NCBI GenBank assembly: GCA_023264975.1
Contig: JAHFUS010000005.1
Coordinates: forward strand, 10,771 to 74,770
DNA: 64,000 nucleotides
Direction of reading: 5' to 3'
Origin: Actinomycetes bacterium
GTDB lineage: Bacteria > Actinomycetota > Acidimicrobiia > Acidimicrobiales > GCA-2861595
Below are positions 14,148 to 41,211 of the stretch, in pieces; position 1 is the first letter of the stretch; each line of letters begins with the position of its first letter. The translations under genes were made by a program, and so were the position numbers. The notes beneath the pieces were generated by a model, which saw only the letters and a program-made list of their open reading frames with translations, was not told where the DNA came from and did not search any database.

Positions 14148-14369
14148 CTACTGCTCTGCGTCGAGGAGCGATTGGGCAGCGGCCAGCGCCGTCAGGGGAT
14201 CGGACGTCGACGCCCCTGCGAGCCAGGCGGCCAGAGGAGCATTCTTCCGCTCGGTGCCGTGGGCGACGACCCGGGCCAGGTCGAGGATGGCGTCGACCTC
14301 GGTCGGGTCGAGCGGCGGCACCCCGAGGGCAGCGGCATAGCGGTCCAGCCAGTCGTCCATGGGCCCCAT
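14148..14369 (-). CDS. Small conserved hypothetical protein (DUF6457-like)
   Basis: 73 aa: MGPMDDWLDRYAAALGVPPLDPTEVDAILDLARVVAHGTERKNAPLAAWLAG... From memory this resembles a small actinobacterial family. Non-biased composition, unlike the surrounding shadow ORFs. Confidence 0.55.
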   Translation of the reverse strand: MGPMDDWLDRYAAALGVPPLDPTEVDAILDLARVVAHGTERKNAPLAAWLAGASTSDPLTALAAAQSLLDAEQ

Positions 14370-14429
14370 CCTGGCGCGCCGGCGGGTGGCCCGCCCCGCC
14401 CGCCGATCGGCACAGGGATGCTGCGCGAG

Positions 14430-16257
<1,828 letters not shown>

Positions 16258-16302
16258 GTCGCCTCGGCGTGGCTCTCCCGGTTCGTCGCCTCGATCGTCG
16301 AA

Positions 16303-27370: not shown

Positions 27371-28519
27371 CTACGCCCCGTCCGGCAACGCCGTCGCCGC
27401 CATCGGGGCGGTGACATCGAGGCGGTAGCCCCGACCGGGGCTGGGCCGGAGCGCCGCTCCGCACGGCCCCAGGCGTCGGCGCAGGCGGGTGATGGTGGCC
27501 TCCAGGAGATGGGGGTCGGCGGTGGGCGATCCCCAGAGCTTCTGGAGGAGCACGGGCCGGGACACCACCGCCCCGGGCCGGTTGGCCAGCAGGGCGAACA
27601 CGGCCTGCTCCAGCGGCGGCATCTCCACCGTGCGATCGCCGATCTGCACGGCGAAGCCCTGCACCACCACCTCGGTCCCGGCCAGCACCAGGGTGCGCCG
27701 GCGGTCCTCGAACCGATCGCTCAGGGCCCGGATCATCAGCCCGAGGCGCCCGATCGCCGGCTCGACCGGAGCCTCGATGCCCTCGTCGCGGGCCACGCCG
27801 GCGCACACCGCCCCGACGCAGGCGGCGACCAGGCCGCCCGAGTTGAACGCCCGGCGCAGGTGCTGGTCGCGGTTGTGATGGGCGGCGACAGCGAAGAGGT
27901 TCTGGACAGCGGGGGCGCTGGTGAACGTCACGGCATCGACCCGCCCGTCACAGGCGGCGTCCACCAGGCGCAGGGCGGGGCCGGTGTCGTCGGGCATCCG
28001 CCAGCGGTAGACCGGCACCTCGACCACGTCGGCGCCCCGCTTTCGAAGCGCCAGGGTGATGTCGACCGCCTCCGCACCAGCCTCCTGTACTGCGACTCGC
28101 TTGCCCTCGAGGGACTCGGCCAGGAGTAGGGGCAGCAGCTGGTCGAGGCGCTCGTTGGGGGACGACTGCCATACGGTCATCCCCGCCGCCTGCACGGCGC
28201 CGGCCGACTTGGGCCCCCGGGCCACGATCCGGGCCGGCGTGAGGGCTGAAAGCAGCGCCTCACCCATGCCCCAGGCCTGGGCTGCCTCCAGCCACGCCCG
28301 CATGCCGATCCCGGTGGTGGCCACCAGGTAGTCCGGCGGCTCGCCGGCCACCGAAGCGGTGGCGGAACGCAGCGCTTCGTCGGAGGCCAGGTACTGGGTG
28401 GCGATGCTCGGCCCGTGCAGGACACGGGCCCCGCGCCGGCGCAACAACTCGGCCTGGTCCTCCCAGCGGCGGTCGGCGGTGACGCCCACGGTGTAGCCCT
28501 CCAGGGGGCGCAACGGCAT
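27371..28519 (-). CDS. nnaR: Uroporphyrinogen-III-synthase (HemD)-like domain fused to OmpR/PhoB-type winged-helix DNA-binding domain (NnaR-like nitrate/nitrite assimilation regulator)
   Basis: Trimmed from ORF 27371..28621 to MPLRPLEGYTVGVTADRR, removing the overlap with nasC. The N-terminal two-thirds is HemD-like. The C-terminus (PLEQAVFALLANRPGAVVSRPVLLQKLW...LEATITRLRRRLG...GRGYRL) is a trans_reg_C-type wHTH. Last gene of the nitrate operon. This architecture is known from Streptomyces NnaR and M. tuberculosis Rv0260c. Confidence 0.85.
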   Translation of the reverse strand: MPLRPLEGYTVGVTADRRWEDQAELLRRRGARVLHGPSIATQYLASDEALRSATASVAGEPPDYLVATTGIGMRAWLEAAQAWGMGEALLSALTPARIVARGPKSAGAVQAAGMTVWQSSPNERLDQLLPLLLAESLEGKRVAVQEAGAEAVDITLALRKRGADVVEVPVYRWRMPDDTGPALRLVDAACDGRVDAVTFTSAPAVQNLFAVAAHHNRDQHLRRAFNSGGLVAACVGAVCAGVARDEGIEAPVEPAIGRLGLMIRALSDRFEDRRRTLVLAGTEVVVQGFAVQIGDRTVEMPPLEQAVFALLANRPGAVVSRPVLLQKLWGSPTADPHLLEATITRLRRRLGPCGAALRPSPGRGYRLDVTAPMAATALPDGA

Positions 28520-28617
28520 TCCCCAATCCTGGGGGGGAGGTGTTACCAACTTGTTTCTGCCGCCCTGGTATCGGGGTGAAATCCGTCTGAACGGCGGCTG
28601 TACGCGTCGTGTCGTGC

Positions 28618-30849
28618 TCACATGCGCTCGATCCGTACGGCCGCCTGTTTGTAGTTGGGTTCGCGCGAGATCGGGTCGAACTCATCGACGGTGAGGCGGT
28701 TTGCGCAGCGCTCGTCGTAGTGGAAGGGCACGAACACCTCGCCCTCGCGCACGATGGCCGTTACCCGCACCAGCAGGTCGTCCACCACGCCCCGCCGCGA
28801 CGCCAGCCGCACCAGGTCGCCGGAGCCGAGGCCGAGGTGCTCCGCGTCGACCGGGTTGATCTCCACCCACGCCTCCGGCGCAAGGTGGTCGAGCACCGCC
28901 ACCCGGCCGGTCTTGGTGCGGGTGTGCCAGTGCTCGACGGTGCGACCGGTGTTCAACAGGAACGGGTAGCGGGAGCTCGGGGCGTCGCTGATGGGCTGCG
29001 GGGTGACGCACCACAGCTTCGCCCTGCCGCTCGGCGTCTGGAACACGCCGTCGGCGTAGATGCGTGGGGTGCCTCCCACCGCCTCCGTCTCCGGCGTGCA
29101 CGGCCACTGGACGCCGCCCGCGGCGTCGATGCGGTCGTACGTGATGCCGCTGTAGTCACACAGCCGCCCGGCCGACACCCGGGCCCATTCGATGAACGCG
29201 TCCTCGGGTGTGGTCCACCCCGGGTAGAGCTCGCCGGCCATGCCGAATGCCTGGGCCATGGCGAGGAAGATGTCGAAGTCGGCCTTGGCCTGGCCCGGCG
29301 GCTCGACCGCTTTGCGGACCCGGGAGACCCGGCGCTCGGCGTTGGTGTAGGTGCCGTCCTTCTCGCCCCAGATGGCGGCGGGGAGCACCACATCGGCCAT
29401 GGCGGTGGTGGGCGTGGCGAAGCCGTCCTGCACGACGAACAGGTCGAGCTTGCGGATGGCCGCCTCCAGGCGGGCCCGGTTCGGGAAGGACACCACCGGG
29501 TTGGTGGCGATGACCCAAAGCCCCTTGATGGTGCCGTCGAGGACGCCGTCGATGATGTCGGGGTAGGCCCGGCCCCGCTCGGTGGGGAGGCGATCGGCGG
29601 GCACGCCCCACAGGGCCGCCATCTCAGCCCGGGCGGCCGGGTCGTCCCAGTTGCGGTAGCCGGGCAGCGATGCGGTGCCGCCCGCCTCCCGGGTGCCCAT
29701 GGCGTTGCACTGGCCGGTGAGGGAGAAGGGGGCGGCGCCGGCCCGACCCACATTGCCCGTCACCAGGCACAGGGTGTTGAGCAGCGTGACGGTCTCGGTG
29801 CCCTGCACCGAGTGGTTGACGCCCATCGTCCACGCCACGAAGGCCCGCTCGGCCCTACCGAAGGCGAGGGCCGCCTCCCGGATCTGATCGGCCGGCACGC
29901 CGCAGTCGACCGCCACCCGGTCGAGGTCGTAGGCGGCCACGTGGGCGGCCAGCTCGGCGAAGCCCTCGGTGTGGGCGTCGACGTAAGCCCGGTCGACAAG
30001 GCCCTCGTCGATGATCACCTTCAGCATCCCGTTGACCAGGGCGATGTCGCTGCGGGGCCGGACGGCCAGGTGGAGGTCGGCGACCATGGCCGTCTTGGTG
30101 ACGCGCGGGTCGACCACGATCACGGTGGCGCCGGCGTTGTCGAGCACGCGGGGCGCCAGCAGCGGATGGTTGTCGGCCACGTTGGCGCCGACGAGCAGGA
30201 TTACGTCGGCCTGCTCGAGGTCCTCATAGGCGCCCGGCGGGCCGTCGCTGCCGAAGCTGCGCTTGTAACCGGCCACCGCGCTCGACATGCACAGCGTGGT
30301 GTTGCCGTCGTAGTGGCGCAGGCCCAGGCCGCCCCGGCACAGCTTGCCAAGGGCGTAGAACTCCTCGGTCACCAGTTGGCCGGTGCTGATGACGGCCACC
30401 GCCTCGGGCCCGTGCTCGTGCAGCAGCCGGTTGAAGCCCACGACGGTGGCGCCCAGCGCCTCGTCCCAGGTGGCCGGCTCCTGGGCGCCGCCCGCCGACC
30501 TGCGAAGGAGGGGAGTGGTGAGTCGCCCTTGTGCGGCAAGGGTCTGGTGCTCGGAGAGGCCCTTAGGGCACAGGCGACCCGCGTTCACCGGGTGGTCGGG
30601 ATCGCCCTGAACCGCCACCGCAATGCCGTCCTTGACACCCACGAACATGCCGCACCCCACCGCGCAGTAGCCGCACGTCGTGCGCACCCACGTGTCGGGT
30701 TTTCGGGTCTCGTTCAGCGTTCCGAACCGGTCGTCGGCCACGTACGCCCGCGGCGACGTGCTGGCCGCCCGTGCCGCGTCGGCCGCTTCCTCGGACCGGG
30801 TCCCCAGCCCGAGCAGCCGGGTGAGGGCGGCTCCCCCCGGCCGGCTCAC
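28618..30849 (-). CDS. nasC: Assimilatory nitrate reductase catalytic subunit (molybdopterin oxidoreductase, NasC/NarB type)
   Basis: 743 aa. N-terminal 4Fe-4S motif TTCGYCAVGCGMFVG...RLCPKG. MopB-type blocks and a C-terminal molybdopterin-binding beta-barrel. No twin-arginine signal. Context with nirBD and narK. GTG start. Confidence 0.88.
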   Translation of the reverse strand: MSRPGGAALTRLLGLGTRSEEAADAARAASTSPRAYVADDRFGTLNETRKPDTWVRTTCGYCAVGCGMFVGVKDGIAVAVQGDPDHPVNAGRLCPKGLSEHQTLAAQGRLTTPLLRRSAGGAQEPATWDEALGATVVGFNRLLHEHGPEAVAVISTGQLVTEEFYALGKLCRGGLGLRHYDGNTTLCMSSAVAGYKRSFGSDGPPGAYEDLEQADVILLVGANVADNHPLLAPRVLDNAGATVIVVDPRVTKTAMVADLHLAVRPRSDIALVNGMLKVIIDEGLVDRAYVDAHTEGFAELAAHVAAYDLDRVAVDCGVPADQIREAALAFGRAERAFVAWTMGVNHSVQGTETVTLLNTLCLVTGNVGRAGAAPFSLTGQCNAMGTREAGGTASLPGYRNWDDPAARAEMAALWGVPADRLPTERGRAYPDIIDGVLDGTIKGLWVIATNPVVSFPNRARLEAAIRKLDLFVVQDGFATPTTAMADVVLPAAIWGEKDGTYTNAERRVSRVRKAVEPPGQAKADFDIFLAMAQAFGMAGELYPGWTTPEDAFIEWARVSAGRLCDYSGITYDRIDAAGGVQWPCTPETEAVGGTPRIYADGVFQTPSGRAKLWCVTPQPISDAPSSRYPFLLNTGRTVEHWHTRTKTGRVAVLDHLAPEAWVEINPVDAEHLGLGSGDLVRLASRRGVVDDLLVRVTAIVREGEVFVPFHYDERCANRLTVDEFDPISREPNYKQAAVRIERM

Positions 30850-30859
30850 GGCCCGGCCG

Positions 30860-30906
30860 CTTTCGAGTAAATAGGGTGTCGTTTTGACACCCTATTTACT
30901 CGAAAG
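30860..30906. repeat. Perfect AT-rich inverted repeat / RNA hairpin (21 bp stem, 5-nt loop) between the Fe-S/DmsC gene and nasC
   Basis: CTTTCGAGTAAATAGGGTGTC-GTTTT-GACACCCTATTTACTCGAAAG read directly. Lies 13 nt after the upstream stop (30920..30922) and 10 nt before nasC GTG 30849. Strikingly AT-rich for this DNA. Confidence 0.9.
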
Positions 30907-30919
30907 AGGGGGAGGGCGG

Positions 30920-32479
30920 TCATCGGCCGGAGAAGAAGCTGCCGGCGACCCGGAACGGGACGACGGTGACGTAGAAGAGGTAGCGGCCGGCCAGCTCGCC
31001 GAGGGCGGCGACGCCCAGAGCGGTGGCCAGGCGGCCACCGGCGGACGGGCCGGCGAGGGGGACGGTGAGCGTCCACGCCAGCAGCGCGACGGTGACGAAC
31101 ACGGCCGTCACCCGGGCGGCGAGGAGCGTCCTGAAACGGCCGGTGAGGAGGGTGGCGGTGCCCCGGTGCTGGCGGTCGGTGCGGCCCCGGACGGTGCGCA
31201 GGAGGTGGCGCACCGCACCCACCTGGACGGCACCGCCCATTGCGGCTGCGGCCATCAGGCCTGTGGTCAGTGACGGCGCCATCTCGGCCCGGTCGAGGCA
31301 CAGGGCGGCGAGGAGGGGACCGGTGGCGAGAGCAGCGGCGAAGAACTGCACCAGGGTCCGGCGGGAGTTCCATACCGGGCGGGCGGGCACGAGGTAGAGC
31401 CGACCGCTGGCATACACGCCGGCCGCGCCGGCCACCACGGTGCCGACGCCGAGGGCGAGGCGGGGGCCGAGGCCGACGTCGCCGCCCCATTCCCATGCCG
31501 CGGCGTAGGCGAGCGACGCGCCGGAGAAGGCGGACAGCAGGGCGACCTCCCGGCTGAGCCACGACGTGCGCCAGTTCCGCAATGCCTTGAAGGCGACGGC
31601 CGGCCGGCCCAGGTGGAACAGGGAGGCGGCCAGGGCGACGGCGCCGGCGAGGGCGGCGCCCACCGCGCCGCCGGCCAGACCGCCCCGGCCCGCTCCACCG
31701 GCTGCCTCGGCGACCACGGTGGAGGCGACCGTGCCGAGGGACAGCTGGGTGAGCAGGGTGAGGGCCACCAGGGGCCAGTGGGGGTCTTCTGGCTTCACCG
31801 AGTAATCGGTGGCCGCCACCAGGTCGGGGAGACCGGCGGGGGTGACGATGCGGGTGGTGGAAAGGGTGATGGACGCCGGGGGTAGGCCGGGGGCGTCGGC
31901 GGTCGCGTGGTCGGCCCGCCATTCGGCCACGTTCACCGGCTCGACAGTGATGGCCGACGTGGGGCAGGCCAGCACGCACGCCGGACTCTCGCCCTGCGAC
32001 AGCCGGGGCAGGCACATGTCGCACTTGGCTACGACCTTCGCCGCCTTGTCGTACACGGGAACCTCATAGGGGCAGTTCCAGATGCAGTACTGGCAGCCGA
32101 TGCACTCGGCTGCGTCGTGGCGCACGACGCCGTTCTGCAGCTTGGTGTAGGCCTGCGTGGGGCAGCCCGACAGGCAGGTGGGCTCCAGGCAGTGATTGCA
32201 CGCCATGGACAGGTTGAGGCGCCTGGTCGTGGGAAAGGCGCCCCCTTCAAGCTCGCCCACCCGCCGCCAGGCCTTGTCGACGGGCGTGGCGTTCTGCTCG
32301 GCGCAGGCGACCTCACAGGAGTGGCAGCCGACGCACGCGTCCATGGCGAAGCTGAAGCGGTACTGCTCGCCGGCGTCGAGGGGCAGCAGTCCTGGGCCGC
32401 GCTCGTCGATACCCGTGAGCTTCCGCAAGCGATCGGTGACCGGTGCGACCGTTGCATCCCGGTCCTCGAGGAGCGTCAA
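30920..32479 (-). CDS. Fusion protein: DmsB-like 4x[4Fe-4S] ferredoxin domain + DmsC-like polytopic membrane anchor
   Basis: 519 aa. Cys clusters CVGCHSCEVAC, CNHCLEPTCLSGCP, CIGCQYCIWNCP and CDMC...CVLACP, then roughly 8 hydrophobic helices (..WPLVALTLLTQLSLGTV.. to ..LGELAGRYLFYVTVV..). TTG start 32479 forms a TTGA overlap with the nirD stop. Confidence 0.85.
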   Translation of the reverse strand: MTLLEDRDATVAPVTDRLRKLTGIDERGPGLLPLDAGEQYRFSFAMDACVGCHSCEVACAEQNATPVDKAWRRVGELEGGAFPTTRRLNLSMACNHCLEPTCLSGCPTQAYTKLQNGVVRHDAAECIGCQYCIWNCPYEVPVYDKAAKVVAKCDMCLPRLSQGESPACVLACPTSAITVEPVNVAEWRADHATADAPGLPPASITLSTTRIVTPAGLPDLVAATDYSVKPEDPHWPLVALTLLTQLSLGTVASTVVAEAAGGAGRGGLAGGAVGAALAGAVALAASLFHLGRPAVAFKALRNWRTSWLSREVALLSAFSGASLAYAAAWEWGGDVGLGPRLALGVGTVVAGAAGVYASGRLYLVPARPVWNSRRTLVQFFAAALATGPLLAALCLDRAEMAPSLTTGLMAAAAMGGAVQVGAVRHLLRTVRGRTDRQHRGTATLLTGRFRTLLAARVTAVFVTVALLAWTLTVPLAGPSAGGRLATALGVAALGELAGRYLFYVTVVPFRVAGSFFSGR

Positions 32480-32829
32480 GTGATCGCGACCTCGACCCTG
32501 CCATCGCGCTCACGGATCAGATGAACCGGGAGGGACACGGCGGGATCGTCGAGGCACGTACCCGTGCGCAGGTCGAAGCTCTGCTTGTACATCGGTGACG
32601 CGACCTTGGGCACATCGCCCTTCGAACCCACGATGCCGCGGGAGATCACGTTGGCGCCGCTGAACGGGTCGTGGTTCGAAAGGGCGAACAGCTCGTCGGT
32701 GGGCGAGACGCGGAACAACGCGACCTGCCGGCCGTCCACCAGGGCGCACGCGCCCCGGTCGGGGACGAGGTCGTCGAAGGCGCAGACGTCCTGCCAGGTG
32801 AGCGTGGCGGTATCGAGGATGGCTGTCAT
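32476..32829 (-). CDS. nirD: Nitrite reductase [NAD(P)H] small subunit NirD
   Basis: C-terminal 117 aa of ORF 32476..34524 (MTAILDTATLTWQDVCAFDDLVPDRGACALVDGRQVALFR...SPMYKQSFDLRTGTCLDD). Rieske-like NirD fold pattern. ATGA overlap with the nirB stop. Confidence 0.9.
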   Translation of the reverse strand: MTAILDTATLTWQDVCAFDDLVPDRGACALVDGRQVALFRVSPTDELFALSNHDPFSGANVISRGIVGSKGDVPKVASPMYKQSFDLRTGTCLDDPAVSLPVHLIRERDGRVEVAIT

Positions 32830-35384
32830 GAAGATCGGACCTCCTGCTTCTCGTGGGAGAAGGCGGGGCGGCGCTGGCCGCGTTCGGCGACGAAGACGAC
32901 GTTGGGGTCGGGCTCGTCGGAGTTCACGAAGGTGCGGAAGCGCGCCACCTTCTCGGGATCGTTGATGGTGGCTGCCCACTCGCACTCGTACTCGGCCACG
33001 TGGCGGTCCATCTCGGCGTCGAGCTCGGCACAGATGCCGAGGGCGTCGTCGAGGACCACCGCCTTGAGGTGGTCGAGGCCGCCCTCGAGCTTGTTGAGCC
33101 ACGTGGCCGTGCGCTCCAGGCGGTCGGCCGTGCGGATGTAGTACCCGAGGAAGCGGTCGATGGTGCGGATGAGGATGTCGTGGTCCACCCCTTCGACCAG
33201 CAGCTGGGCGTGCTGGGGGCGCATGCCGCCGTTGCCGCACACGTAGAGGTTCCAGCCCTGCTCCGTGGCGATGATGCCGAAGTCCTTGCTCTGAGCCTCG
33301 GCGCACTCGCGGGTGCAGCCGGAGACGGCCGACTTCAGCTTGTGGGGCGCCCGCAGTCCCCGGTACCGCAGCTCGATCTCGATGGCCAGGCTGGTGGAGT
33401 CCTGCACCCCGTAACGGCACCAGGTGGTACCGACGCACGACTTCACCGTGCGCAGCGCCTTGCCGTACGCGTGGCCCGACTCCATGCCGGCGTCGATGAG
33501 GCGGCTCCAGATCTCGGGCAGGTGGTCGACCCGGGCTCCGAGCAGGTCGATGCGCTGGCCGCCTGTGATCTTGCAGTAGAGGCCGTAGTCCTTGGCGACC
33601 TGGCCGATCACGATGAGCTGGTCGGGGGTGATCTCGCCACCCGGCACGCGGGGGATGACCGAGTAGGTGCCGTCGCGCTGGAGGTTGGCCAGGAAGTGGT
33701 CGTTGGTGTCCTGGAGGGGCGCCTGGGAGCGCTCGAGGATGTAGCCGCCTCCGACGCCCAGCGACGCGAACATCGACGCCACCGCCGGCTTGCACACCTC
33801 GCAGCCGAGGCCGCGGCCGTGGTCGGCCAGCACCTGGGAGAACGAGGTGAGGCGGTGCACGCGGACGATGTCGAACAGCTCGGCGCGGCTGTAGTCGAAG
33901 TGCTCGCACAGGTTGTTGCGGACCTCGATGCCCGCCTTGCGCAGCTCCAGCTTCAGCAGGTCGGTGACCACGGGGACGCAACCCCCACAGCCTGTTCCTG
34001 CCGCCGTGCACGCCTTCAGGGCGGGGACATCGACGGCCCCGCCCTGGACGGCGGCGCAGATGGCGCCCTTGCTCACGCTGTTGCACGAGCAGACCATGGC
34101 GGTGTCGGAGAGCGACTCGACGCCCATACCGACGGCGGCACCGTCGCCGGTGCGGACGGGCAGGACCAGCTCTTCGCAGTTGGGCGGAGTGGGCATGTCG
34201 CCCCGCACCATCTGCACGAGGGTCTGGTACATCGACGCGTCGCCCACGAGGATTCCGCCGAGCACCTGGGAGCCGTCGCCCGACAGAACAAGGCGCTTGT
34301 ACACGTTGGCCACCGGGTCGGAGAACACGATCGACTCGGCGCCCGGGGTGGCCGCGAACCCGTCGCCGAAGCTGGCCACGTCGATGCCCATGAGCTTCAA
34401 CTTGGTGGACAGGTCGGCCCCGCCGAAGGTGGACTCGCCGCCCAGGATGCGGTCGGCCACGACCCGGGCCATCTGGTAGCCCGGCGCCACCAGCCCCCAG
34501 ATGCGGCCCTCGGCCAGGGCGCACTCACCGATGGCGAAGATGCGGGGATCGCTGGTGCGGCAGGCCGCGTCCACCACCACGCCACCGCGCTCGCCCACCG
34601 CCAGACCGGCCTCCCGGGCCAGCTGGTCGCGGGGGCGGATGCCGGCCGAGAACACCACCAGGTCGACGGGAAGGTCGGCGTCGTCCTCGCCGGCGAAGCG
34701 CATGCCGCACACCCGCCCGTCCGGGCCCTCCAGGATCTCGGAGGTGGCAATGCCCGTGTGGACCGACACCCCCAGGTCCTCGATGCGCCGGCGCAGTGCA
34801 GAACCGCCGCCGTCGTCGACCTGCACCGGCATCAGGCGAGGGGCGAACTCGACCACGTGGGTCTCCAGGCCGAGGCTGCGCAGGGCGTTGGCCGCCTCCA
34901 GGCCGAGCAGGCCCCCGCCCACCACGGCGCCCACCCGCCGGCCCTGGGCGTCGGCCCGGATGGCCTCCAGGTCGTCGAGGGTCCGGTAGACGTGACATCC
35001 GGGCAGGTCCTTTCCGGGTACCGGGGGGACGAAGGGGTAGGAGCCGGTGGCCAGCACCAGGGCGTCGTAGGCGATCCTCGTACCCCGGGTGGACACGACC
35101 TTGCCGGCCTCGGTGTCGATGGAGGCGACGGCGTCGCCAACGTGGACCTCGAGACCGGCCGAGTCGAAGAACCCGGGCGCCACCAGTGACAGTTCCTCGG
35201 CCGACGTCCCGGTGAAGAACGAGCTGAGCCCGACCCGGTCGTAGGCGAGGCGGCCCTCTTCGCAGAAGGTGACGATGTCCCACTCGACGGTGGCGCCCCG
35301 CTCCACCAGCACCTCGAGCAGCTTCTGGCCAACCATGCCGTTGCCGGCGACCACGAGTGTGCGACGGGCGGTGTCCGTCGCCAT
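32826..35384 (-). CDS. nirB: Nitrite reductase [NAD(P)H] large subunit NirB
   Basis: Trimmed from ORF 32826..36395 to MATDTARRTLVVAGNGMVGQKLLE. FAD/NAD folds (VVAGNGMVG, VVGGGLLGLEAA), BFD-like 2Fe-2S region (CSCNSVSKG), sirohaem/4Fe-4S motifs (SCVGTTWCRYG, SGCTRECAEA). 852 aa. Confidence 0.95.
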   Translation of the reverse strand: MATDTARRTLVVAGNGMVGQKLLEVLVERGATVEWDIVTFCEEGRLAYDRVGLSSFFTGTSAEELSLVAPGFFDSAGLEVHVGDAVASIDTEAGKVVSTRGTRIAYDALVLATGSYPFVPPVPGKDLPGCHVYRTLDDLEAIRADAQGRRVGAVVGGGLLGLEAANALRSLGLETHVVEFAPRLMPVQVDDGGGSALRRRIEDLGVSVHTGIATSEILEGPDGRVCGMRFAGEDDADLPVDLVVFSAGIRPRDQLAREAGLAVGERGGVVVDAACRTSDPRIFAIGECALAEGRIWGLVAPGYQMARVVADRILGGESTFGGADLSTKLKLMGIDVASFGDGFAATPGAESIVFSDPVANVYKRLVLSGDGSQVLGGILVGDASMYQTLVQMVRGDMPTPPNCEELVLPVRTGDGAAVGMGVESLSDTAMVCSCNSVSKGAICAAVQGGAVDVPALKACTAAGTGCGGCVPVVTDLLKLELRKAGIEVRNNLCEHFDYSRAELFDIVRVHRLTSFSQVLADHGRGLGCEVCKPAVASMFASLGVGGGYILERSQAPLQDTNDHFLANLQRDGTYSVIPRVPGGEITPDQLIVIGQVAKDYGLYCKITGGQRIDLLGARVDHLPEIWSRLIDAGMESGHAYGKALRTVKSCVGTTWCRYGVQDSTSLAIEIELRYRGLRAPHKLKSAVSGCTRECAEAQSKDFGIIATEQGWNLYVCGNGGMRPQHAQLLVEGVDHDILIRTIDRFLGYYIRTADRLERTATWLNKLEGGLDHLKAVVLDDALGICAELDAEMDRHVAEYECEWAATINDPEKVARFRTFVNSDEPDPNVVFVAERGQRRPAFSHEKQEVRSS

Positions 35385-36601
35385 CAGATCGCCACCTCGA
35401 GGTCCCAGCTGGTGGCCCACACCCGCTGGCGCCGGTTGACGCAGAACGAGGCGATGCCGACGGCGGCGGCCACGACGGCGAAGCCGGCGGTGAAGGAGCC
35501 GGTGCTGCCCTTGAGGGACCCGAGGGCGAAGGGCAGGAGGAAGCCGCCCACGCCACCCGCGGCGCCGACCAGGCCGGTCATGGCGCCCATACGGCCCGGG
35601 AAGCGCTGCGGCACCAGCTGGAACACCGAACCGTTGCCCATGCCGAACGCGCCCATGGCGCCGAACAGGAGGAGGACGGTGACCGGCAGACCGGGCAGGG
35701 TGGCTATGCCGAGGAGGAGGAGCGCCGCGACGCCCAGCGCGGCAGCAAGGACGCGGGTGCCGCCCAGCCGGTCGGACAGCCACCCGCCGAGGGGACGGAG
35801 GAAGGAGCCGGCGGCGGCGCACAGAGCGGCGAACCCGCCGGCGGTCACCTTGGTGAGCCCGAAGCGGTCGACGAAGAAGATGGGCAGGTACCCGGCCAGC
35901 CCGACGAAGCCGCCGAACGTCACCAGGTAGAAGCTGCACAGCCACCGGGCGTCGCGGTCCTGCAGCAGCGAGAAGGGATTGTTCGACACACCAAGAGCGG
36001 ACACCGGCCGGGGCGGCTCCTTGGCCAGGACGGCGAACGCCAGCCAGGCCAGGCTGACGGGGATCGCCGCCAGGCCGAACACGCCGTGCCACCCGACGTG
36101 TTCGGCCAAACGGGGGGCTGCCAGTGCGGCTATCAGGGTCCCGGAGTTGCCGGCGCCCGCGATGCCCAGGGCCAGGCCCTGGTGCTCGGGCGGGTACCAG
36201 CGGCTGGCGAGGGGCAGGGCGACGGCGAAGCTGGCGCCGGCGATGCCGAGGAGCAGGCCGATGCCGATGACCTGCGAGTAGGTGCCGCCGCCCAGCCAAC
36301 CCCACGTCAGGGGCACGAGGGTCAGGCCCATGGTGACGAGGCCGGTGCGGCGAACGCCCACGCGGTCGGCCAGCGTGCCGAGCAGGAGGCGGCATGCCGA
36401 TCCGCCGAGCGGCGGCACCGCCACCATCAGGCCCTTCTGAGCGGCAGACAGGTGGAGGTCGGACCCGACGTAGGCGCCGAGGGCGCCGAGCAGGACCCAG
36501 ACCATGAACGAGATGTCGAAGTGCACCAGCGCCGCCACCAGGCTGGGCGTATGGCCGGCGTCGCGAAAACCTTTGATTGCCACCCGCTCAGGCTCTCGCA
36601 C
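35384..36601 (-). CDS. narK: Nitrate/nitrite transporter, MFS NarK/NasA family
   Basis: 405 aa, 12-TM MFS pattern. NNP-type Gly-rich motifs (GTLADRVGVRR, GIAGAGNSG). First gene of the operon. GTG start. Its stop overlaps the nirB start (TGATG). Confidence 0.9.
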   Translation of the reverse strand: MREPERVAIKGFRDAGHTPSLVAALVHFDISFMVWVLLGALGAYVGSDLHLSAAQKGLMVAVPPLGGSACRLLLGTLADRVGVRRTGLVTMGLTLVPLTWGWLGGGTYSQVIGIGLLLGIAGASFAVALPLASRWYPPEHQGLALGIAGAGNSGTLIAALAAPRLAEHVGWHGVFGLAAIPVSLAWLAFAVLAKEPPRPVSALGVSNNPFSLLQDRDARWLCSFYLVTFGGFVGLAGYLPIFFVDRFGLTKVTAGGFAALCAAAGSFLRPLGGWLSDRLGGTRVLAAALGVAALLLLGIATLPGLPVTVLLLFGAMGAFGMGNGSVFQLVPQRFPGRMGAMTGLVGAAGGVGGFLLPFALGSLKGSTGSFTAGFAVVAAAVGIASFCVNRRQRVWATSWDLEVAI

Positions 36602-36655: not shown

Positions 36656-36698
36656 GTCACTCCAGGGTGACGTGCGGGAATCGTCACCCGCTGTTCAC
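36656..36698 (+). promoter_or_regulatory. Array of GTnAC-type half sites upstream of narK (GlnR/NnaR-box-like)
   Basis: GTCAC-n6-GTGAC-n11-GTCAC-n6-TTCAC read directly, 55-97 nt upstream of narK GTG 36601. It resembles the actinomycete GlnR consensus gTnAc-n6-GaAAc. The b-sites deviate from consensus. Confidence 0.4.
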
Positions 36699-38169: not shown

Positions 38170-41100
38170 ATGAGCGCCGACGATGGAACGGGTGAGCGAT
38201 CTGTGCGACGAGTCCTTCATCTTCACCGCTCACCTGGCGCTGCCCGCCACTGGACGGCGATCACCGCCGGTGTCGTCGCGGCACTTGCCGCCTCCACTGT
38301 GGCGGCCGTGGGAAGCGTGCCGGCCGGCGCTCAGTACGGCGGGAGGGCGACCGGGAAGCCCACAACGGGTCGCCTCTCCGCCCGCCTGGATGCACTGTCC
38401 CGGACGGCGGAGGGACGGGCGCCGAGAGCCGGTGTTCCGGGCTCCGACCTCCCGAGCGGCCGCAGCGGCGGGGTAAGGCGTCTCGACGACGGCAGAGTCG
38501 TCGTCGACGTAGACGTGTACGCCGACCGCATGCACGGGGCTCCAGAAGCGTTGGGCGCCATCGGTGACGTCCTGGCGGTGAGCGACACAAGCCTTCACAC
38601 GGTCACCATGGCGGTGGAGGCCGGCGAGCTCGACCGGCTGGCACAGCGCGACGCGGTCCGCTACGTGAACGAGGTCGTGACACCGGTGCAGCGGGGCTGC
38701 TCCCCCGGGATCTCCGAGGGGGACGGACAACTCAAGGCCGGGCCGGCCCGGTCGACCTACGGTGTCGACGGGACCGGCGTCCGTGTCGGCATCCTGTCGG
38801 ACTCGTTCGACCGGTCGCCCGCCGGTGCCGCCACCAGCCCCACTGCCGACATGGCGGCTGGCGATCTGCCCGGCGCCGCCAACCCGTGCGGCCGCCTCGC
38901 GCCGGTGAGTGTCCTCGCCGACGACGCGGTGGAGACGACCGACCGGCCCAACCAGGACGAGGGCCGGGCCATGGCCCAGATCGTCCACGACCTGGCTCCC
39001 GGCGCCAGCCTGTCGTTCGCCTCCGCAAACGTGAGCGAAACCGCCTTCGCCAACAACATCACCTCGCTCGTCAACGCCGGCGCCAAGGTGATCGTCGACG
39101 ACGTGGGCTACTTCAGCGAGCCCTTCTACCAGGACGGCCCGGTGGCGGTGGCCATCAACAACGCGCGGGCGGCGGGCGTGTCGTATGTCACTGCCGCAGG
39201 CAACGCCAACATCGTGGTCGGCGGTGCCGACGTGGGTTCCTACGAAGCGACGAGCTACCGCCCCACGCCGTGCCCGCCGCTCGTCACGGGCTACCTCGAC
39301 TGCCACTCGTTCACTCCCGCAGGCCCTGGCGACAGCACCTCCCGGATGGTTATCCCGGCCGGCAGGACCGTGACCCTCGATCTCCAGTGGGCGCAGCCGC
39401 GGGGCGGCGTGACCACCGATCTCGATGTTTGCATCCTCAACGCCGCAACTGGTGTGTTGCTGCGGTGCGCGGTAGACGACAACCCCGGCCCCGGCGGCAG
39501 CCAGCGTCCCTTCGAGCTGGCGTCGTACAAGAACACCACGGGCAGCTCCCAGGCCGTCGACGTGGTCGTGGCCCGCTACTCCGGCCCTGGTGCCCGGTTC
39601 AAGTGGGTCCACGGCGGCGATGCGCCGTCGAGCGTGGAGTACTCGGTGTCGTCCGGGGGCGACGTCTACGGGCCGACGGTCTTCGGGCACAGCGGAGCGG
39701 AGGGCGCCATCTCGATCGGCGCCGTCCCCTACAGCAACGCCGGCGTGGCGGAGCCGTACTCGTCGCGCGGGCCCGTGACCTACCTCTTCAACCCGGTGCC
39801 GAGCACCGCCGCGCTGGGGTCGCCCCTCGTATTGGCCAAGCCGGACGTCGCCGCGTCGGACTGCGGGCAGACGTCCTTCTTTCCGCCGCTCTCGGCCTCA
39901 CCCCACCGCTTCTGCGGGACCTCCGCCGCCGCACCGCACGCCGCCGGCGTCGTGGCGCTGCTGCTCAACGCCAGCACCACGCTCACGCCGGCGCAGGTTG
40001 CAGCCACGCTGCGGAACACGGCGGCGCCGGTCCCCGGGGCGCCCGCTTCGGCCGTCGGCACCGGACTGATCGATGCAGCCGCAGCGGTCGCATCTCTCGG
40101 CGTGCCGGTGAGCGACGTGTCGGCTTCGATCGCCGACGCGTCGGTGCTGGAAGGCGGCCCGGGGCTCACGGCCTCGCTGAGCTTCACCGTCACCCTGTCG
40201 GCCCCCAGCGCAGCCACCGTCACCCTCGGGTACGCCACGGCCGACGGGACGGCGACGGCGCCCGGCGACTACTCGTCCACCTCGGGCACGCTCGCCATAG
40301 CGCCCGGGCAGCGCAGCGCCACCATCGTCGTGCCGGTGGTGGGCGACGCCTCCGTCGAGGGGAACGAGACGCTCACCGTGCACCTCGGGAGCCCGGCCGC
40401 CGTCCCGCTGGCCGACGGCGTGGCGACCGGCACCATCGTGGACGACGAGCAGCGCAACGGCTACTGGCTCGTCGCCTCCGACGGTGGCATCTTCGCCTTC
40501 GGTGACGCCAGGTTCCTCGGCTCCACCGGCGCCATCCGCTTGGCCCAGCCCATCGTCGGGATGGCGCCGACCCCCTCCGGAAACGGGTATTGGTTGGTCG
40601 CGTCGGACGGCGGGATCTTCGCCTTCGGCGACGCCAGGTTCCTCGGGTCCACCGGCGCCGTCCGCCTGGCCCAGCCGATCGTCGGGATGGTGCCGACACC
40701 GTCCGGAAAGGGGTACTGGCTGGTCGCCGCCGACGGCGGCATCTTCGCCTTCGGTGACGCCCGGTTCCTCGGGTCCACCGGCGCCCTCAAGCTGAACCGG
40801 CCGATCGTGGCCATGGCGGCCACGCCGTCGGGCAACGGCTACTGGCTGGTCGCGTCGGACGGCGGGATCTTCGCCTTCGGCGACGCCGCCTTCCTCGGCT
40901 CGACGGGAGCCATCCGCCTGGCCCAGCCGATCGTGGGGATGGCGGCCACCCCGTCCGGCAGGGGGTACTGGCTGGTCGCCTCCGACGGCGGCATCTTCGC
41001 CTTCGGCGACGCCAGGTTCCTCGGTTCCACGGGCGCCATCAAGCTCAACCTACCCATCGTCGCCATGGCGCCGACGCGGTCGGGCAACGGCTACTGGCTC

Positions 41101-41211
41101 ACGGCATCCGACGGCGGGATCTTTGCCTTCGGCGGCGCCGCATTCTTCGGCTCGACCGGCGCCATCAAGCTGGCCCGGCCGGTCGTCGGCGTCGGCGTCG
41201 CCCGTCCCTGA
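38170..41211 (+). CDS. Secreted subtilisin-like (S8) serine protease with Calx-beta domain and six C-terminal 42-aa repeats
   Basis: 1013 aa. Signal-like ITAGVVAALAASTVAAVGSVPAGA. Catalytic blocks GVRVGILSDSFD, AQIVHDLAPGA and CGTSAAAPHAAGVVALL. Calx-beta-like segment (..YATADGTATAPGDYSSTSGTLAIAPGQRSATIVVPVVGD..). Repeats listed separately. Confidence 0.9.
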   Translation: MSADDGTGERSVRRVLHLHRSPGAARHWTAITAGVVAALAASTVAAVGSVPAGAQYGGRATGKPTTGRLSARLDALSRTAEGRAPRAGVPGSDLPSGRSGGVRRLDDGRVVVDVDVYADRMHGAPEALGAIGDVLAVSDTSLHTVTMAVEAGELDRLAQRDAVRYVNEVVTPVQRGCSPGISEGDGQLKAGPARSTYGVDGTGVRVGILSDSFDRSPAGAATSPTADMAAGDLPGAANPCGRLAPVSVLADDAVETTDRPNQDEGRAMAQIVHDLAPGASLSFASANVSETAFANNITSLVNAGAKVIVDDVGYFSEPFYQDGPVAVAINNARAAGVSYVTAAGNANIVVGGADVGSYEATSYRPTPCPPLVTGYLDCHSFTPAGPGDSTSRMVIPAGRTVTLDLQWAQPRGGVTTDLDVCILNAATGVLLRCAVDDNPGPGGSQRPFELASYKNTTGSSQAVDVVVARYSGPGARFKWVHGGDAPSSVEYSVSSGGDVYGPTVFGHSGAEGAISIGAVPYSNAGVAEPYSSRGPVTYLFNPVPSTAALGSPLVLAKPDVAASDCGQTSFFPPLSASPHRFCGTSAAAPHAAGVVALLLNASTTLTPAQVAATLRNTAAPVPGAPASAVGTGLIDAAAAVASLGVPVSDVSASIADASVLEGGPGLTASLSFTVTLSAPSAATVTLGYATADGTATAPGDYSSTSGTLAIAPGQRSATIVVPVVGDASVEGNETLTVHLGSPAAVPLADGVATGTIVDDEQRNGYWLVASDGGIFAFGDARFLGSTGAIRLAQPIVGMAPTPSGNGYWLVASDGGIFAFGDARFLGSTGAVRLAQPIVGMVPTPSGKGYWLVAADGGIFAFGDARFLGSTGALKLNRPIVAMAATPSGNGYWLVASDGGIFAFGDAAFLGSTGAIRLAQPIVGMAATPSGRGYWLVASDGGIFAFGDARFLGSTGAIKLNLPIVAMAPTRSGNGYWLTASDGGIFAFGGAAFFGSTGAIKLARPVVGVGVARP
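40456..41208 (+). repeat. Six tandem 126-bp coding repeats (42 aa: NGYWLVASDGGIFAFGDARFLGSTGAIRLAQPIVGMAPTPSG)
   Basis: Period of 126 nt seen directly (40456, 40582, 40708, 40834, 40960, 41086). Amino acids are nearly invariant while many third-codon positions differ between copies. Confidence 0.9.

What the first reader, a model, noticed from the sequence alone, without database searches (positions are those of the whole stretch)
30920..32479. DmsB-like 4x[4Fe-4S] domain fused to a DmsC-like membrane anchor inside a nitrate ASSIMILATION operon
The operon narK-nirB-nirD-X-nasC-nnaR is translationally coupled (TGATG, ATGA and TTGA overlaps). X is a 519-aa protein with four ferredoxin-type Cys clusters followed by roughly eight TM helices. 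Known assimilatory nitrate reductases take electrons from a NADH-dependent flavoprotein (NasB/NirB type), a C-terminal 2Fe-2S extension, ferredoxin or flavodoxin. DmsBC-type modules are known from respiratory, quinol-linked molybdoenzymes. NasC here has no Tat signal. Together these suggest a cytoplasm-facing, menaquinol-linked electron supply to an assimilatory-type enzyme, or a dual assimilatory/dissimilatory role. I do not know of a characterised example.
Basis: partly seen in the sequence, partly recalled or inferred. Interest (0 to 1): 0.6.

Follow-up and report, generated by a model that had tools for sequence, protein, structure and literature searches.

The report
Membrane-anchored, probably quinol-fed assimilatory nitrate reductase
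In this Acidimicrobiales nitrate-assimilation operon the nitrate reductase gene sits next to a gene for one protein that joins a four-cluster iron-sulfur wire to a quinol-binding membrane anchor facing the cell interior, a pairing kept in every related locus I checked across several phyla, so these bacteria probably reduce nitrate for growth with electrons from the membrane quinol pool, a route I found no description of in the searchable literature.

Summary
On the minus strand lie narK, nirB, nirD, X, nasC and nnaR. X (30920-32479, 519 aa) has a DmsB-type domain with 16 Cys in four groups and a DmsC-family domain of eight helices. Neither X nor NasC has a Tat signal.

- In 76 loci from many phyla, 7 sampled Actinomycetota genomes and 13 sampled Planctomycetota genomes, the fused gene always sits beside a NasC-type gene. 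The stop and start codons often overlap by 4 nt.
- X-linked NasC proteins form one clade inside the Cys-Met nitrate-reductase group. The two sister actinobacterial clades whose architecture I checked (one member each) carry fused NADH or diflavin reductase modules instead.
- The two E. coli DmsC menaquinol-site residues (H65, E87) align with H289 and E311, which are invariant in 64 homologues.
- The Lys/Arg bias puts the iron-sulfur domain and the quinol site on the cytoplasmic side in 64 of 64. E. coli DmsC shows the opposite bias.
- This genome has MenA but no NarG or NapA.

Most likely X-NasC is a cytoplasm-facing menaquinol:nitrate oxidoreductase that serves assimilation. I rate it a new variant of a known kind. 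I found no description in the searchable literature, although other agents of this scan have flagged the same arrangement in other genomes.

The parts
35384..36601 (-). narK, NarK-family nitrate/nitrite MFS transporter (405 aa), first gene of the operon
   Evidence: Pfam MFS_1 3e-46; NCBIfam TIGR00886 NarK family 1.3e-77. Its stop overlaps the nirB start (TGATG).
32826..35384 (-). nirB, NAD(P)H nitrite reductase large subunit
   Evidence: NCBIfam PRK14989 1145 bits and TIGR02374 1047 bits, both above cut-off. Pfam Pyr_redox_2, Fer2_BFD, NIR_SIR.
32476..32829 (-). nirD, nitrite reductase small subunit. It lacks the Rieske CxH/CxxH cluster ligands.
   Evidence: Pfam Rieske_2 8e-39; TIGR02378 109.6 bits against cut-off 74.65. 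The translation has no CxH or CxxH motif. ATGA overlap with nirB and TTGA overlap with X.
30920..32479 (-). X: fused four-cluster iron-sulfur domain plus DmsC-type eight-helix membrane anchor (519 aa)
31931..32368 (-). X residues 38-183: DmsB/PsrB-type domain with four [4Fe-4S]-type Cys groups (16 Cys)
   Evidence: All 16 Cys are invariant in 64 homologues and align with E. coli DmsB. Foldseek matches ArrB 6cz7_B (9.6e-10), FdnH 1kqf_B and PsrB 2vpw_B (TM-score by target 0.78).
30968..31780 (-). X residues 234-504: DmsC/NrfD-type anchor, helices 235-259, 269-287, 307-331, 337-360, 373-394, 402-432, 450-470 and 478-504
   Evidence: Pfam PF04976 65.1 bits. AlphaFold secondary structure. Foldseek matches ActC 8k9e_C, 6lod_C and 6btm_C (TMq 0.43-0.44) and PsrC 2vpw_C.
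31547..31615 (-). Putative menaquinol site: H289 (HLGRP) to E311 (SWLSRE), at the cytoplasmic ends of helices 2 and 3
   Evidence: These align with E. coli DmsC H65 and E87 at the same 22-residue spacing. H289, L290, G291, P293, S306, W307, S309, R310 and E311 are invariant in 64 homologues.
30861..30905 (.). 45-nt perfect palindrome (20-nt arms, 5-nt loop) in the 70-nt X-nasC gap; one copy of a dispersed REP/MITE-like repeat
   Evidence: RNA fold of the 70-nt gap -45.5 kcal/mol. About 30 copies on 20 or more contigs of the same genome. The nearest relative, L042, has a variant with compensatory inner-stem changes at the same site.
28618..30849 (-). nasC: short Nas/NarB-type Mo-bisPGD nitrate reductase (743 aa) with FS0 motif C59-x2-C-x3-C, Mo-ligand Cys187 in TLCMSSAV, no Tat signal and no C-terminal redox domain
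   Evidence: Pfam Molybdop_Fe4S4, Molybdopterin and Molydop_binding only. NCBIfam NasA_Halo 561 bits and NasC 539 bits, both below cut-off. Best solved relative is D. desulfuricans NapA 2jio, 501 bits. Motif positions. Tree placement.
27371..28621 (-). nnaR: HemD-like domain plus OmpR-type DNA-binding domain, the architecture of the actinobacterial nitrate/nitrite assimilation regulator
   Evidence: Pfam HEM4 3.9e-33 and Trans_reg_C 3.6e-11; NCBIfam PRK07239 345.6 bits against cut-off 273. GTGA overlap with nasC.
36656..36671 (.). GTCAC-n6-GTGAC palindrome 55-70 nt upstream of the narK start; fits the published GlnR-box consensus GTnAC-n6-GTnAC (weak evidence)
   Evidence: It is the only match in the 64-kb window, where chance predicts 0.59. 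The consensus is quoted in PMC10704036. It was found in only 1 of 11 related promoters.

Best explanation
X and NasC together form a two-gene, membrane-bound, cytoplasm-facing menaquinol:nitrate oxidoreductase that carries out the first step of nitrate assimilation.

Proposed path: menaquinol binds in the DmsC-type domain of X, near the cytoplasmic face, at a site that includes H289 and E311. Its two electrons pass along the four [4Fe-4S] clusters of the N-terminal domain of X, which sits in the cytoplasm. They reach the FS0 cluster and then the Mo-bisPGD centre (Cys187 ligand) of soluble NasC, docked on X. NasC reduces nitrate imported by NarK. NirBD then reduces the nitrite to ammonium with NAD(P)H.

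Shown by sequence and comparison: the domain make-up; conservation of the cluster ligands and the DmsC quinol-site residues; the invariable X-NasC gene pairing; the cytoplasmic orientation by charge bias and the lack of export signals; and the placement of NasC among nitrate reductases.

Inferred: that X and NasC bind each other, that quinol is the donor, and that the physiological role is assimilation. The last rests on the operon partners nirBD, narK and nnaR.
For: 1. Pairing.
- In the 76 of the 80 best genome-contig loci where NasC was found beside X (the other four run out of DNA within or about 250 nt beyond X), X is followed directly by a NasC homologue on the same strand. These span Acidimicrobiia, Planctomycetota, Verrucomicrobiota, Myxococcota including Sorangium cellulosum, Acidobacteriota, Poribacteria and Latescibacterota.
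- The same holds for all 7 Actinomycetota genomes with a full-length fusion in an even sample of 401. One of them has the order NasC then X.
- It also holds for 13 of 13 Planctomycetota hits from an even sample of 201.
- In about half of the loci the X stop and the nasC start overlap by 4 nt.
- About 16 loci have no nirBD within the flanks, so the pair does not depend on NirBD.

2. Co-evolution. X-linked NasC proteins form one clade of 78 rows with SH-aLRT 98. The X and NasC distance matrices correlate with r = 0.94, reached by 0 of 999 permutations.

3. Other electron-input modules. One member checked from each of the two sister actinobacterial NasC clades carries its own fused module: NADH-FAD reductase plus BFD [2Fe-2S] in L129, and flavodoxin plus FAD diflavin in L143. 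The X-linked NasC has none.

4. Quinol site. H289 and E311 align with E. coli DmsC H65 and E87 and are invariant in 64 homologues of 31-82% identity. That H65 and E87 are needed for menaquinol oxidation by DmsABC comes from my own knowledge (Rothery & Weiner 1996; Geijer & Weiner 2004).

5. Orientation.
- The loops on the iron-sulfur side hold a mean of 11.2 Lys+Arg, against 1.6 on the other side, in 64 of 64 homologues. E. coli DmsC, whose N-terminus is periplasmic, gives 2 against 5.
- No Tat-like or hydrophobic N-terminal segment occurs in 64 X homologues or 72 NasC homologues.

6. This genome (98% complete) has MenA (241.9 bits, cut-off 102). It has no NarG above cut-off and no NapA or second Nas.

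7. NirD here lacks Rieske cluster ligands, so it cannot act as a NasG-like redox shuttle to NasC.
Against: - There is no biochemical or genetic evidence for any member of the family. I found none in the literature.
- NirB, with its FAD/NADH domain and BFD [2Fe-2S], is encoded in the same operon. In principle it could feed NasC, as the NADH-dependent systems of Klebsiella and Paracoccus do.
- A quinol site on the cytoplasmic side gives no redox loop, so the energetic advantage is only indirect.
- The Lys/Arg rule is a statistical predictor, not a measurement.
- The 80 loci were chosen as the best matches to X among at least 596, so adjacency in the remainder was not inspected.
- In this genome a repeat element separates X from nasC, so tight co-translation is not required.
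Confidence: 0.68

Rival explanations
1. NasC takes its electrons from NADH through NirB (FAD and BFD [2Fe-2S]), as in Klebsiella or Paracoccus. X is then only a membrane tether, for example to hold NasC next to NarK, or a secondary overflow route, and not the main donor.
For: nirB, with a complete NADH/FAD/[2Fe-2S] N-terminal half, lies in the same operon. nirBD are adjacent to X-NasC in most loci.
Against: - The X-NasC pair persists in about 16 loci with no nirBD nearby.
- NirD has no Rieske ligands to act as a shuttle.
- A mere tether would not need 16 invariant cluster Cys plus invariant quinol-site His and Glu across phyla.
- The one NADH-fed sister-clade NasC examined (L129) carries the reductase fused in cis.
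Confidence: 0.12
2. X-NasC is mainly a dissimilatory or redox-balancing quinol:nitrate reductase, a functional stand-in for NarGHI or Nap. Its place in the nas/nir operon then reflects shared use of nitrite detoxification by NirBD.
For: - The architecture (catalytic subunit, four-cluster subunit, quinol anchor) is that of respiratory molybdoenzymes.
- The genome has no NarG or NapA, so this is its only nitrate reductase.
- From my own knowledge, M. tuberculosis NarGHI is known to serve both roles.
Against: - The operon holds the assimilation regulator nnaR, narK and NADH-nitrite reductase.
- A GlnR-box-like site lies in the promoter, though this is weak evidence.
- The quinol site and the active site are on the same (cytoplasmic) side, so no redox loop is expected.
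- NasC belongs to the Nas lineage.
Confidence: 0.12
3. The DmsC domain no longer handles quinol. The iron-sulfur domain of X is a membrane-tethered ferredoxin reduced by a soluble or membrane partner such as a ferredoxin:NAD(P) reductase. On this reading the system is a variant of ferredoxin-dependent NarB.
For: X-linked NasC is a short, NarB-like enzyme with no extra domain. NarB-type enzymes use ferredoxin (own knowledge).
Against: - The HLGRP...SWLSRE motif carrying the DmsC H65/E87 equivalents is invariant, together with several other polar residues of the membrane domain: Q245, Y362, W370, R456, E495 and R499.
- No conserved third gene for such a reductase accompanies the pair.
Confidence: 0.06

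Closest known systems
E. coli DMSO reductase DmsABC (complex iron-sulfur molybdoenzyme family)
   Same: - The four-cluster subunit has the same 16-Cys pattern.
- The eight-helix DmsC anchor scores above the Pfam PF04976 cut-off.
- The WPL, HLG(S/R)P, S-x-LS-x-E and GEL-x-GR motifs are shared, and the H65/E87 equivalents are conserved.
- The iron-sulfur subunit sits on the side of the membrane where the anchor's N-terminus and quinol site lie.
   Different: - B and C are fused into one polypeptide.
- The complex faces the cytoplasm rather than the periplasm: the Lys/Arg bias is inverted and there is no Tat signal.
- The catalytic partner is a Nas-lineage nitrate reductase, not a DmsA-type S/N-oxide reductase.
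- The setting is assimilatory, not respiratory.
SoeABC sulfite:quinone oxidoreductase (Allochromatium vinosum, Ruegeria pomeroyi)
   Same: It is a membrane-bound molybdoenzyme of three modules (Mo subunit, iron-sulfur subunit, NrfD/PsrC-like anchor) whose active site is in the cytoplasm (PMC6335251). This is the published precedent for a cytoplasm-facing enzyme of this build.
   Different: - It has three separate subunits.
- Electrons flow from substrate to quinone (sulfite oxidation), the opposite direction.
- The function is sulfur dissimilation.
- I did not compare SoeA, SoeB or SoeC sequences with X or NasC.
Classical assimilatory nitrate reductases: NarB (ferredoxin/flavodoxin), NasA/NasC with NasB- or NasC-type NADH reductase, and NasN (fused diflavin reductase, M. 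smegmatis)
   Same: - The catalytic subunit has the same fold and motifs: FS0 Cys motif, Cys-Met Mo ligand context, cytoplasmic location.
- It sits in the same operon company of nirBD and narK.
- It is short, like NarB.
   Different: - The electron-input module is a membrane quinol-binding protein, not a flavoprotein or soluble ferredoxin.
- X-linked NasC forms a clade of its own.
- It has a conserved N-terminal extension of about 45 residues before FS0.
- It scores below the NCBIfam NasC and NasA equivalog cut-offs.
- A DMSO-reductase-family phylogeny paper states that no member of the Nas/Nap/Aio clade is associated with the canonical four-cluster or membrane-anchor subunits (PMC7331816).
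NarGHI respiratory nitrate reductase
   Same: It is a cytoplasm-facing quinol:nitrate oxidoreductase with a four-cluster subunit. NarH is a Foldseek match (1q16_B, 4.4e-4).
   Different: - NarI is a dihaem cytochrome b that oxidises quinol on the outer side, which creates a redox loop. X has a haem-less DmsC/NrfD-type anchor with its site on the inner side.
- NarG is a distant type II enzyme with an Asp ligand. NarG is absent from this genome.
Polysulfide reductase PsrABC and Alternative Complex III (ActB/ActC)
   Same: These are the best structural matches for the two halves of X: PsrB and PsrC (2vpw) and ActC (8k9e_C, 6lod_C, 6btm_C). Both use a haem-less NrfD-type quinol site next to the last cluster.
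   Different: They face the periplasm, have separate subunits, use other substrates, and function in respiration.

Membership tests
Four-cluster iron-sulfur subunit of complex iron-sulfur molybdoenzymes (DmsB/PsrB/NrfC type) | Four Cys groups (16 Cys) of the CxxCxxCxxxC type, arranged as in DmsB | tested here: met
   C49-59, C94-106, C126-136 and C153-172 all align with E. coli DmsB and are invariant in 64 homologues.
Four-cluster iron-sulfur subunit of complex iron-sulfur molybdoenzymes (DmsB/PsrB/NrfC type) | Fold of the two-ferredoxin-domain four-cluster protein | tested here: met
   Foldseek matches ArrB (9.6e-10), FdnH (4.5e-9) and PsrB (5.9e-9, TM-score by target 0.78), using a model of pLDDT 89.9.
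Four-cluster iron-sulfur subunit of complex iron-sulfur molybdoenzymes (DmsB/PsrB/NrfC type) | Equivalog-level match to DmsB (NCBIfam TIGR02951 cut-off) | tested here: not met
   149.2 bits against a cut-off of 214.1. It belongs to the family but is not a DmsB orthologue.
DmsC/YnfH membrane anchor (Pfam PF04976) | Profile match above the curated cut-off over the whole domain, with eight transmembrane helices | tested here: met
   65.1 bits against 22.3, profile positions 7-273 of 275. The model has eight long helices.
DmsC/YnfH membrane anchor (Pfam PF04976) | Menaquinol-site residues equivalent to E. coli DmsC H65 and E87 | tested here: met
   H289 and E311 align with them at identical spacing and are invariant in 64 homologues. 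Their role in E. coli comes from my own knowledge of the literature.
DmsC/YnfH membrane anchor (Pfam PF04976) | N-terminus, quinol site and iron-sulfur partner on the periplasmic side, with Tat-dependent export of the partner subunits | tested here: not met
   Lys+Arg bias is 13 against 2 for the window protein (family mean 11.2 against 1.6), placing that side in the cytoplasm. E. coli DmsC gives 2 against 5. There is no Tat signal on X or NasC. This is a prediction, not a measurement.
Assimilatory nitrate reductase catalytic subunit (NasA/NasC/NarB) | N-terminal CxxCxxxC...C [4Fe-4S] motif, Mo-bisPGD domains, Cys Mo-ligand in a Cys-Met (not Cys/Sec-His) context, and no export signal | tested here: met
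   C59-x2-C-x3-C; Pfam Molybdop_Fe4S4, Molybdopterin and Molydop_binding; Cys187 in TLCMSSAV aligns with the RLCMASAV segment of D. desulfuricans NapA, which from my own knowledge holds its Mo-ligand Cys140. The N-terminus has no twin-Arg or hydrophobic core.
Assimilatory nitrate reductase catalytic subunit (NasA/NasC/NarB) | Phylogenetic placement with nitrate reductases rather than formate dehydrogenases | tested here: met
   In the maximum-likelihood tree of 105 sequences, all Cys-Met sequences, including E. coli NapA and the NADH- and diflavin-fused actinobacterial Nas, group together (SH-aLRT 98). The Cys/Sec-His FDH-type sequences fall outside. No biochemically characterised Nas sequence could be added as a reference.
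Assimilatory nitrate reductase catalytic subunit (NasA/NasC/NarB) | Equivalog-level match to the NCBIfam NasC (NF047855) or haloarchaeal NasA (NF041323) models | tested here: not met
   539 bits against a cut-off of 1100, and 561 against 1000. It is a separate subfamily.
Assimilatory nitrate reductase catalytic subunit (NasA/NasC/NarB) | Nitrate reductase activity, and a requirement for growth on nitrate | not testable with these tools
   This needs genetics or enzymology.
SoeABC-like cytoplasm-facing membrane molybdoenzymes | Mo subunit and iron-sulfur subunit without export signals, attached to an NrfD/PsrC/DmsC-type anchor | tested here: met
   The SoeABC description is from PMC6335251. This is a likeness in architecture only; homology to SoeA, SoeB or SoeC was not tested.
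NarGHI | NarG-type catalytic subunit and dihaem cytochrome b NarI | tested here: not met
   The narG model gives only 30-32 bits anywhere in the genome, against a cut-off of 1084. The anchor of X is of the DmsC type.

The most novel reading that the evidence does not exclude
X-NasC may define a further, quinol-dependent class of assimilatory nitrate reductase, beside the ferredoxin/flavodoxin-, NADH- and diflavin-dependent classes. In addition, the inverted NrfD/DmsC-type module may be electrogenic: the protons of menaquinol, oxidised at the inner face, would be released to the outside through the conserved polar residues of the second four-helix bundle (Y362, R367, W370, R456, E495, R499). 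Nitrate assimilation itself would then add to the proton-motive force instead of only consuming reductant.
Probability: 0.15. Interest if true: 0.85.

Novelty: new variant of a known kind. Interest (0 to 1): 0.62.

Why it matters
From my own knowledge, textbook assimilatory nitrate reductases are soluble enzymes fed by ferredoxin, flavodoxin or NAD(P)H. A published phylogeny of the DMSO-reductase family states that the Nas/Nap/Aio clade is not associated with the canonical four-cluster and membrane-anchor subunits (PMC7331816). This operon, and every related locus examined, shows a Nas-lineage enzyme paired with exactly such a module, fused and turned towards the cytoplasm.

If quinol is the donor, three things follow.
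- Nitrate assimilation in many soil, freshwater and marine bacteria would draw on the respiratory quinone pool. The carriers include Acidimicrobiia, Planctomycetota, Verrucomicrobiota, Myxococcota and Acidobacteriota.
- Reductant would first pass through proton-pumping NADH dehydrogenase, which lowers the energy cost of using nitrate.
- Assimilation would be tied to the redox state of the respiratory chain and to oxygen.

It also matters for annotation. Source names for this protein include 'formate dehydrogenase iron-sulfur subunit', 'DMSO reductase iron-sulfur subunit' and 'DmsC/YnfH family molybdoenzyme membrane anchor subunit'. Such names can lead metagenome surveys to score these genomes for DMSO or formate respiration and to miss the electron donor for their nitrate assimilation.

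Tried and rejected
- Amycolatopsis mediterranei nasACKBDEF. I suspected its 'NasC' subunit might be this fusion and so a characterised example. The original paper (PubMed 21424691) is not held, and the papers that cite it say nothing about that subunit. This stays unresolved.
- Literature searches. Eight searches combined nitrate assimilation with DmsC, NrfD, quinol, membrane anchor or membrane-bound. None returned a description of the arrangement.
- Simple hydropathy scan. It found only five of the eight helices. The Ala/Gly-rich helices needed the AlphaFold model.
- GlnR box. The strict GTnAC-n6-GTnAC pattern lies upstream of narK here but in only 1 of 11 related promoters. I do not rely on it.
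- X-nasC hairpin as an operon-specific attenuator or terminator. Rejected, because it is a dispersed repeat with about 30 copies in the genome.
- Formate dehydrogenase reading of NasC. TIGR01591 is its top NCBIfam score (581 bits, below cut-off). Rejected on the Cys-Met active-site motif, the tree and the operon context.
- Model coordinates. They were not available in the Python box, so I could not measure the distance from H289/E311 to the nearest cluster ligands.
- Complex prediction for X plus NasC. The tools do not offer it.
Full report
**What is in the window**

The window has 70-75% G+C. It belongs to a 3.78-Mb, 98%-complete genome. The nearest protein relatives carry the source names Acidimicrobiales and Actinomycetota.

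Six genes lie on the minus strand between 27371 and 36601:

| Gene | Coordinates | Product |
|---|---|---|
| narK | 35384-36601 | NarK-family transporter |
| nirB | 32826-35384 | nitrite reductase large subunit |
| nirD | 32476-32829 | nitrite reductase small subunit |
| X | 30920-32479 | fused iron-sulfur and membrane-anchor protein |
| nasC | 28618-30849 | nitrate reductase |
| nnaR | 27371-28621 | HemD-like plus OmpR-type regulator |

The junctions narK/nirB (TGATG), nirB/nirD (ATGA), nirD/X (TTGA) and nasC/nnaR (GTGA) overlap. X and nasC are 70 nt apart.

**Anatomy of X**

- Pfam finds Fer4_11 and DmsC (PF04976, 65.1 bits against a cut-off of 22.3).
- NCBIfam's best model is DmsB (TIGR02951, 1e-43), below its equivalog cut-off.
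- The 16 Cys fall into four groups and align one for one with E. coli DmsB.
- An AlphaFold model built on 64 homologues is confident (pLDDT 89.9, pTM 0.88). It shows a β-rich N-terminal domain and eight long helices between residues 235 and 504.
- Foldseek matches the N-terminal half to ArrB, FdnH and PsrB. It matches the C-terminal half to ActC of Alternative Complex III and to PsrC.

X is thus a genuine fusion of the two electron-transfer subunits of a complex iron-sulfur molybdoenzyme.

**The quinol site**

Aligned with E. coli DmsC, X shares four motifs: WPL at helix 1, HLG(S/R)P after helix 2, S-x-LS-x-E before helix 3, and GEL-x-GR in helix 8. H289 and E311 fall on DmsC H65 and E87, with the same 22-residue spacing. 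From my own knowledge of the literature, these two residues are needed for menaquinol binding and oxidation in DmsABC.

In an alignment of 64 homologues of 31-82% identity to the window protein, drawn from several phyla, three sets of residues are invariant:
- all 16 Cys;
- H289, L290, G291, P293, S306, W307, S309, R310 and E311;
- further membrane-domain residues Q245, Y362, W370, R456, E495 and R499.

**Orientation**

I took the helix limits from the model and counted Lys+Arg in the loops.
- The side that carries the iron-sulfur domain, H289 and E311 (loops 2, 4 and 6 plus the C-terminus) has 13 in the window protein and a mean of 11.2 in the family.
- The other side has 2 in the window protein and a mean of 1.6 in the family.
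- The difference is at least 5 in all 64 sequences.
- E. coli DmsC, used as a control, gives the opposite bias (2 against 5). That fits its known periplasmic N-terminus.

None of 64 X homologues has a twin-arginine motif or a hydrophobic segment before the first Cys group. None of 72 partner NasC proteins has a Tat signal either. Two carry an RR dipeptide, but with no hydrophobic core after it.

The module therefore keeps the DmsB-DmsC geometry but is turned round as a whole, so that clusters and quinol site face the cytoplasm. This is a prediction.

**NasC**

NasC is a short enzyme of 743 aa. It has only the FS0, Mo-bisPGD and dinucleotide-binding domains.
- Its closest solved relative is the monomeric NapA of Desulfovibrio desulfuricans, at 501 bits.
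- The Mo-ligand Cys187 lies in TLCMSSAV. This is the Cys-Met context of Nap and Nas, not the Cys/Sec-His context of formate dehydrogenases.
- In a maximum-likelihood tree of 105 sequences, the Cys-Met sequences group together with SH-aLRT 98. They include E. coli NapA and actinobacterial Nas enzymes. The FDH-type sequences fall outside.

**The pairing**

A scan of one genome per species returned at least 596 relatives of X. In 76 of the best 80 loci a NasC homologue directly follows X on the same strand. In the other four the locus ends within X or about 250 nt beyond it. The 80 come from Acidimicrobiia, Planctomycetota, Verrucomicrobiota, Myxococcota (including several complete Sorangium genomes), Acidobacteriota, Poribacteria and others.

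Two even phylum samples give the same result.
- Actinomycetota: 7 of 401 genomes have a full-length fusion, all next to NasC. One has the order NasC then X.
- Planctomycetota: 14 of 201 have it, counting the query's own genome (L066), whose pair was already seen. All 13 others were adjacent to NasC.

Further points:
- In roughly half of the loci the X stop and the nasC start overlap by 4 nt.
- nirBD are adjacent in most loci but absent from the flanks of about 16.
- X-linked NasC proteins form one clade of 78 rows. Of these, 77 are adjacent to X and one is a tandem duplicate.
- The X and NasC distance matrices correlate with r = 0.94. This fits inheritance as a unit but does not prove contact.

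The two sister actinobacterial clades are informative. I checked one member of each:
- one (L129) has NasC fused to an NADH-FAD reductase with a BFD [2Fe-2S] domain;
- the other (L143) has NasC fused to a flavodoxin-FAD diflavin reductase, which is the NasN design.

Both examined sister enzymes thus carry their own electron-input module. In the X-linked clade, the only constant companion is X.

X-linked NasC also has a conserved extension of about 45 residues before FS0. The NADH-fused enzyme L129 lacks it. I take it as a candidate docking segment; this is inference.

**The rest of the genome**

The genome has MenA, at 241.9 bits against a cut-off of 102. It has no NarG above cut-off and no NapA or second Nas. 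NirD here has no CxH/CxxH Rieske ligands. It is therefore unlikely to shuttle electrons from NirB to NasC in the way that, from my own knowledge, has been proposed for Paracoccus NasG.

**Most likely mechanism**

Menaquinol is oxidised at the inner face of the DmsC domain. Electrons run through four clusters to FS0 and the Mo centre of NasC. NirBD then reduces the nitrite.

The midpoint potentials, from my own knowledge, leave ample driving force: about -74 mV for menaquinone and +420 mV for nitrate/nitrite.

The benefit would be that reductant first passes through proton-pumping NADH dehydrogenase. With both sites on the same side of the membrane, no redox loop is expected. Whether the NrfD-type domain moves protons is open.

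Rivals, with my estimates: NADH through NirB with X as a tether (0.12); a mainly dissimilatory role (0.12); a tethered ferredoxin with a dead quinol site (0.06).

**Comparison with what is known**

The build is that of DmsABC or PsrABC. The cytoplasmic orientation has a published precedent in SoeABC (PMC6335251). The catalytic subunit is of the Nas type. I did not find the combination described. A family-wide phylogeny paper states that the Nas/Nap/Aio clade is not associated with the canonical four-cluster or anchor subunits (PMC7331816). Sources name X 'formate dehydrogenase iron-sulfur subunit' or 'DmsC/YnfH family anchor'.

Earlier notes of this scan report the same arrangement in other genomes. 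They are AI notes, not independent evidence. I re-derived each point here.

**Limits**

- Nothing is experimental.
- No biochemically characterised NarB or NasA sequence was available as a tree reference.
- The Amycolatopsis nasACKBDEF paper could not be read.

**Verdict**

It is a new variant of a known kind. It is widespread and can be tested in cultured carriers.

Noticed in passing
window 30861-30905 (gap between X and nasC): A perfect 20+20-nt AT-rich palindrome, TTTCGAGTAAATAGGGTGTC-AAAAC-GACACCCTATTTACTCGAAA. It is one copy of a dispersed REP/MITE-like repeat with about 30 near-identical copies on 20 or more contigs of this genome. The nearest relative (L042) has, at the same site, a variant with the same outer arms and compensatory inner-stem changes. 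Here it breaks the 4-nt X/nasC overlap seen in many other genomes.
   Followed up: partly
window 36656-36671: GTCAC-n6-GTGAC palindrome 55-70 nt upstream of narK. It is the only match in the window to the published GlnR-box consensus GTnAC-n6-GTnAC. A similar site lies upstream of nirB in L042, but none in 10 other related promoters.
   Followed up: partly
window 38170-41211 (+): A 1013-aa protein with a subtilase domain, a Calx-beta domain and then about seven tandem copies of a ~38-residue repeat ([41 protein letters not shown]). The repeat matches no Pfam family.
   Followed up: partly
NasC N-termini in L059-L121 and in the window (residues 1-55): X-linked NasC proteins carry a conserved pre-FS0 extension. 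The large clade has ...DGPLTRELL..PGGFGLGQVP....PD.TT..CGFCSTGC. The Acidimicrobiia clade has LGLGT....Y..D.RFG.....R.P..WVRTTCGYCSVGC. It has no Tat features and may be a docking peptide for X.
   Followed up: partly
X homologues of the large clade, e.g. L034:9724-11439, L037:9634-11400: Clade-B X proteins have an extra conserved N-terminal segment before the DmsB-like domain (TLIDEFLAEQA..TAVERFA..H....YRDLLP...P.PGQQYAFEVDLD). The window's clade has a shorter, poorly modelled version (residues 1-30, pLDDT 42-60).
   Followed up: no
L129 (G311) and L143 (G306), Actinomycetota: Single-polypeptide assimilatory nitrate reductases. One is NasC fused to an NADH-FAD reductase, Rubredoxin_C and a BFD [2Fe-2S] domain (1195-aa ORF). 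The other is NasC fused to flavodoxin and an FAD-binding domain (the NasN design).
   Followed up: partly
own genome G000:C46:2148-5782: A second molybdoenzyme-like gene (33% identity to NasC over the N-terminal part) sits next to a DmsB-like iron-sulfur region, in an open frame of about 946 aa. It could be a formate-dehydrogenase-like enzyme or an ActB-like protein. I did not examine it further.
   Followed up: no
L073 (Verrucomicrobiae MAG), 11849-16921: Two near-identical NasC copies in tandem lie downstream of one X gene.
   Followed up: no
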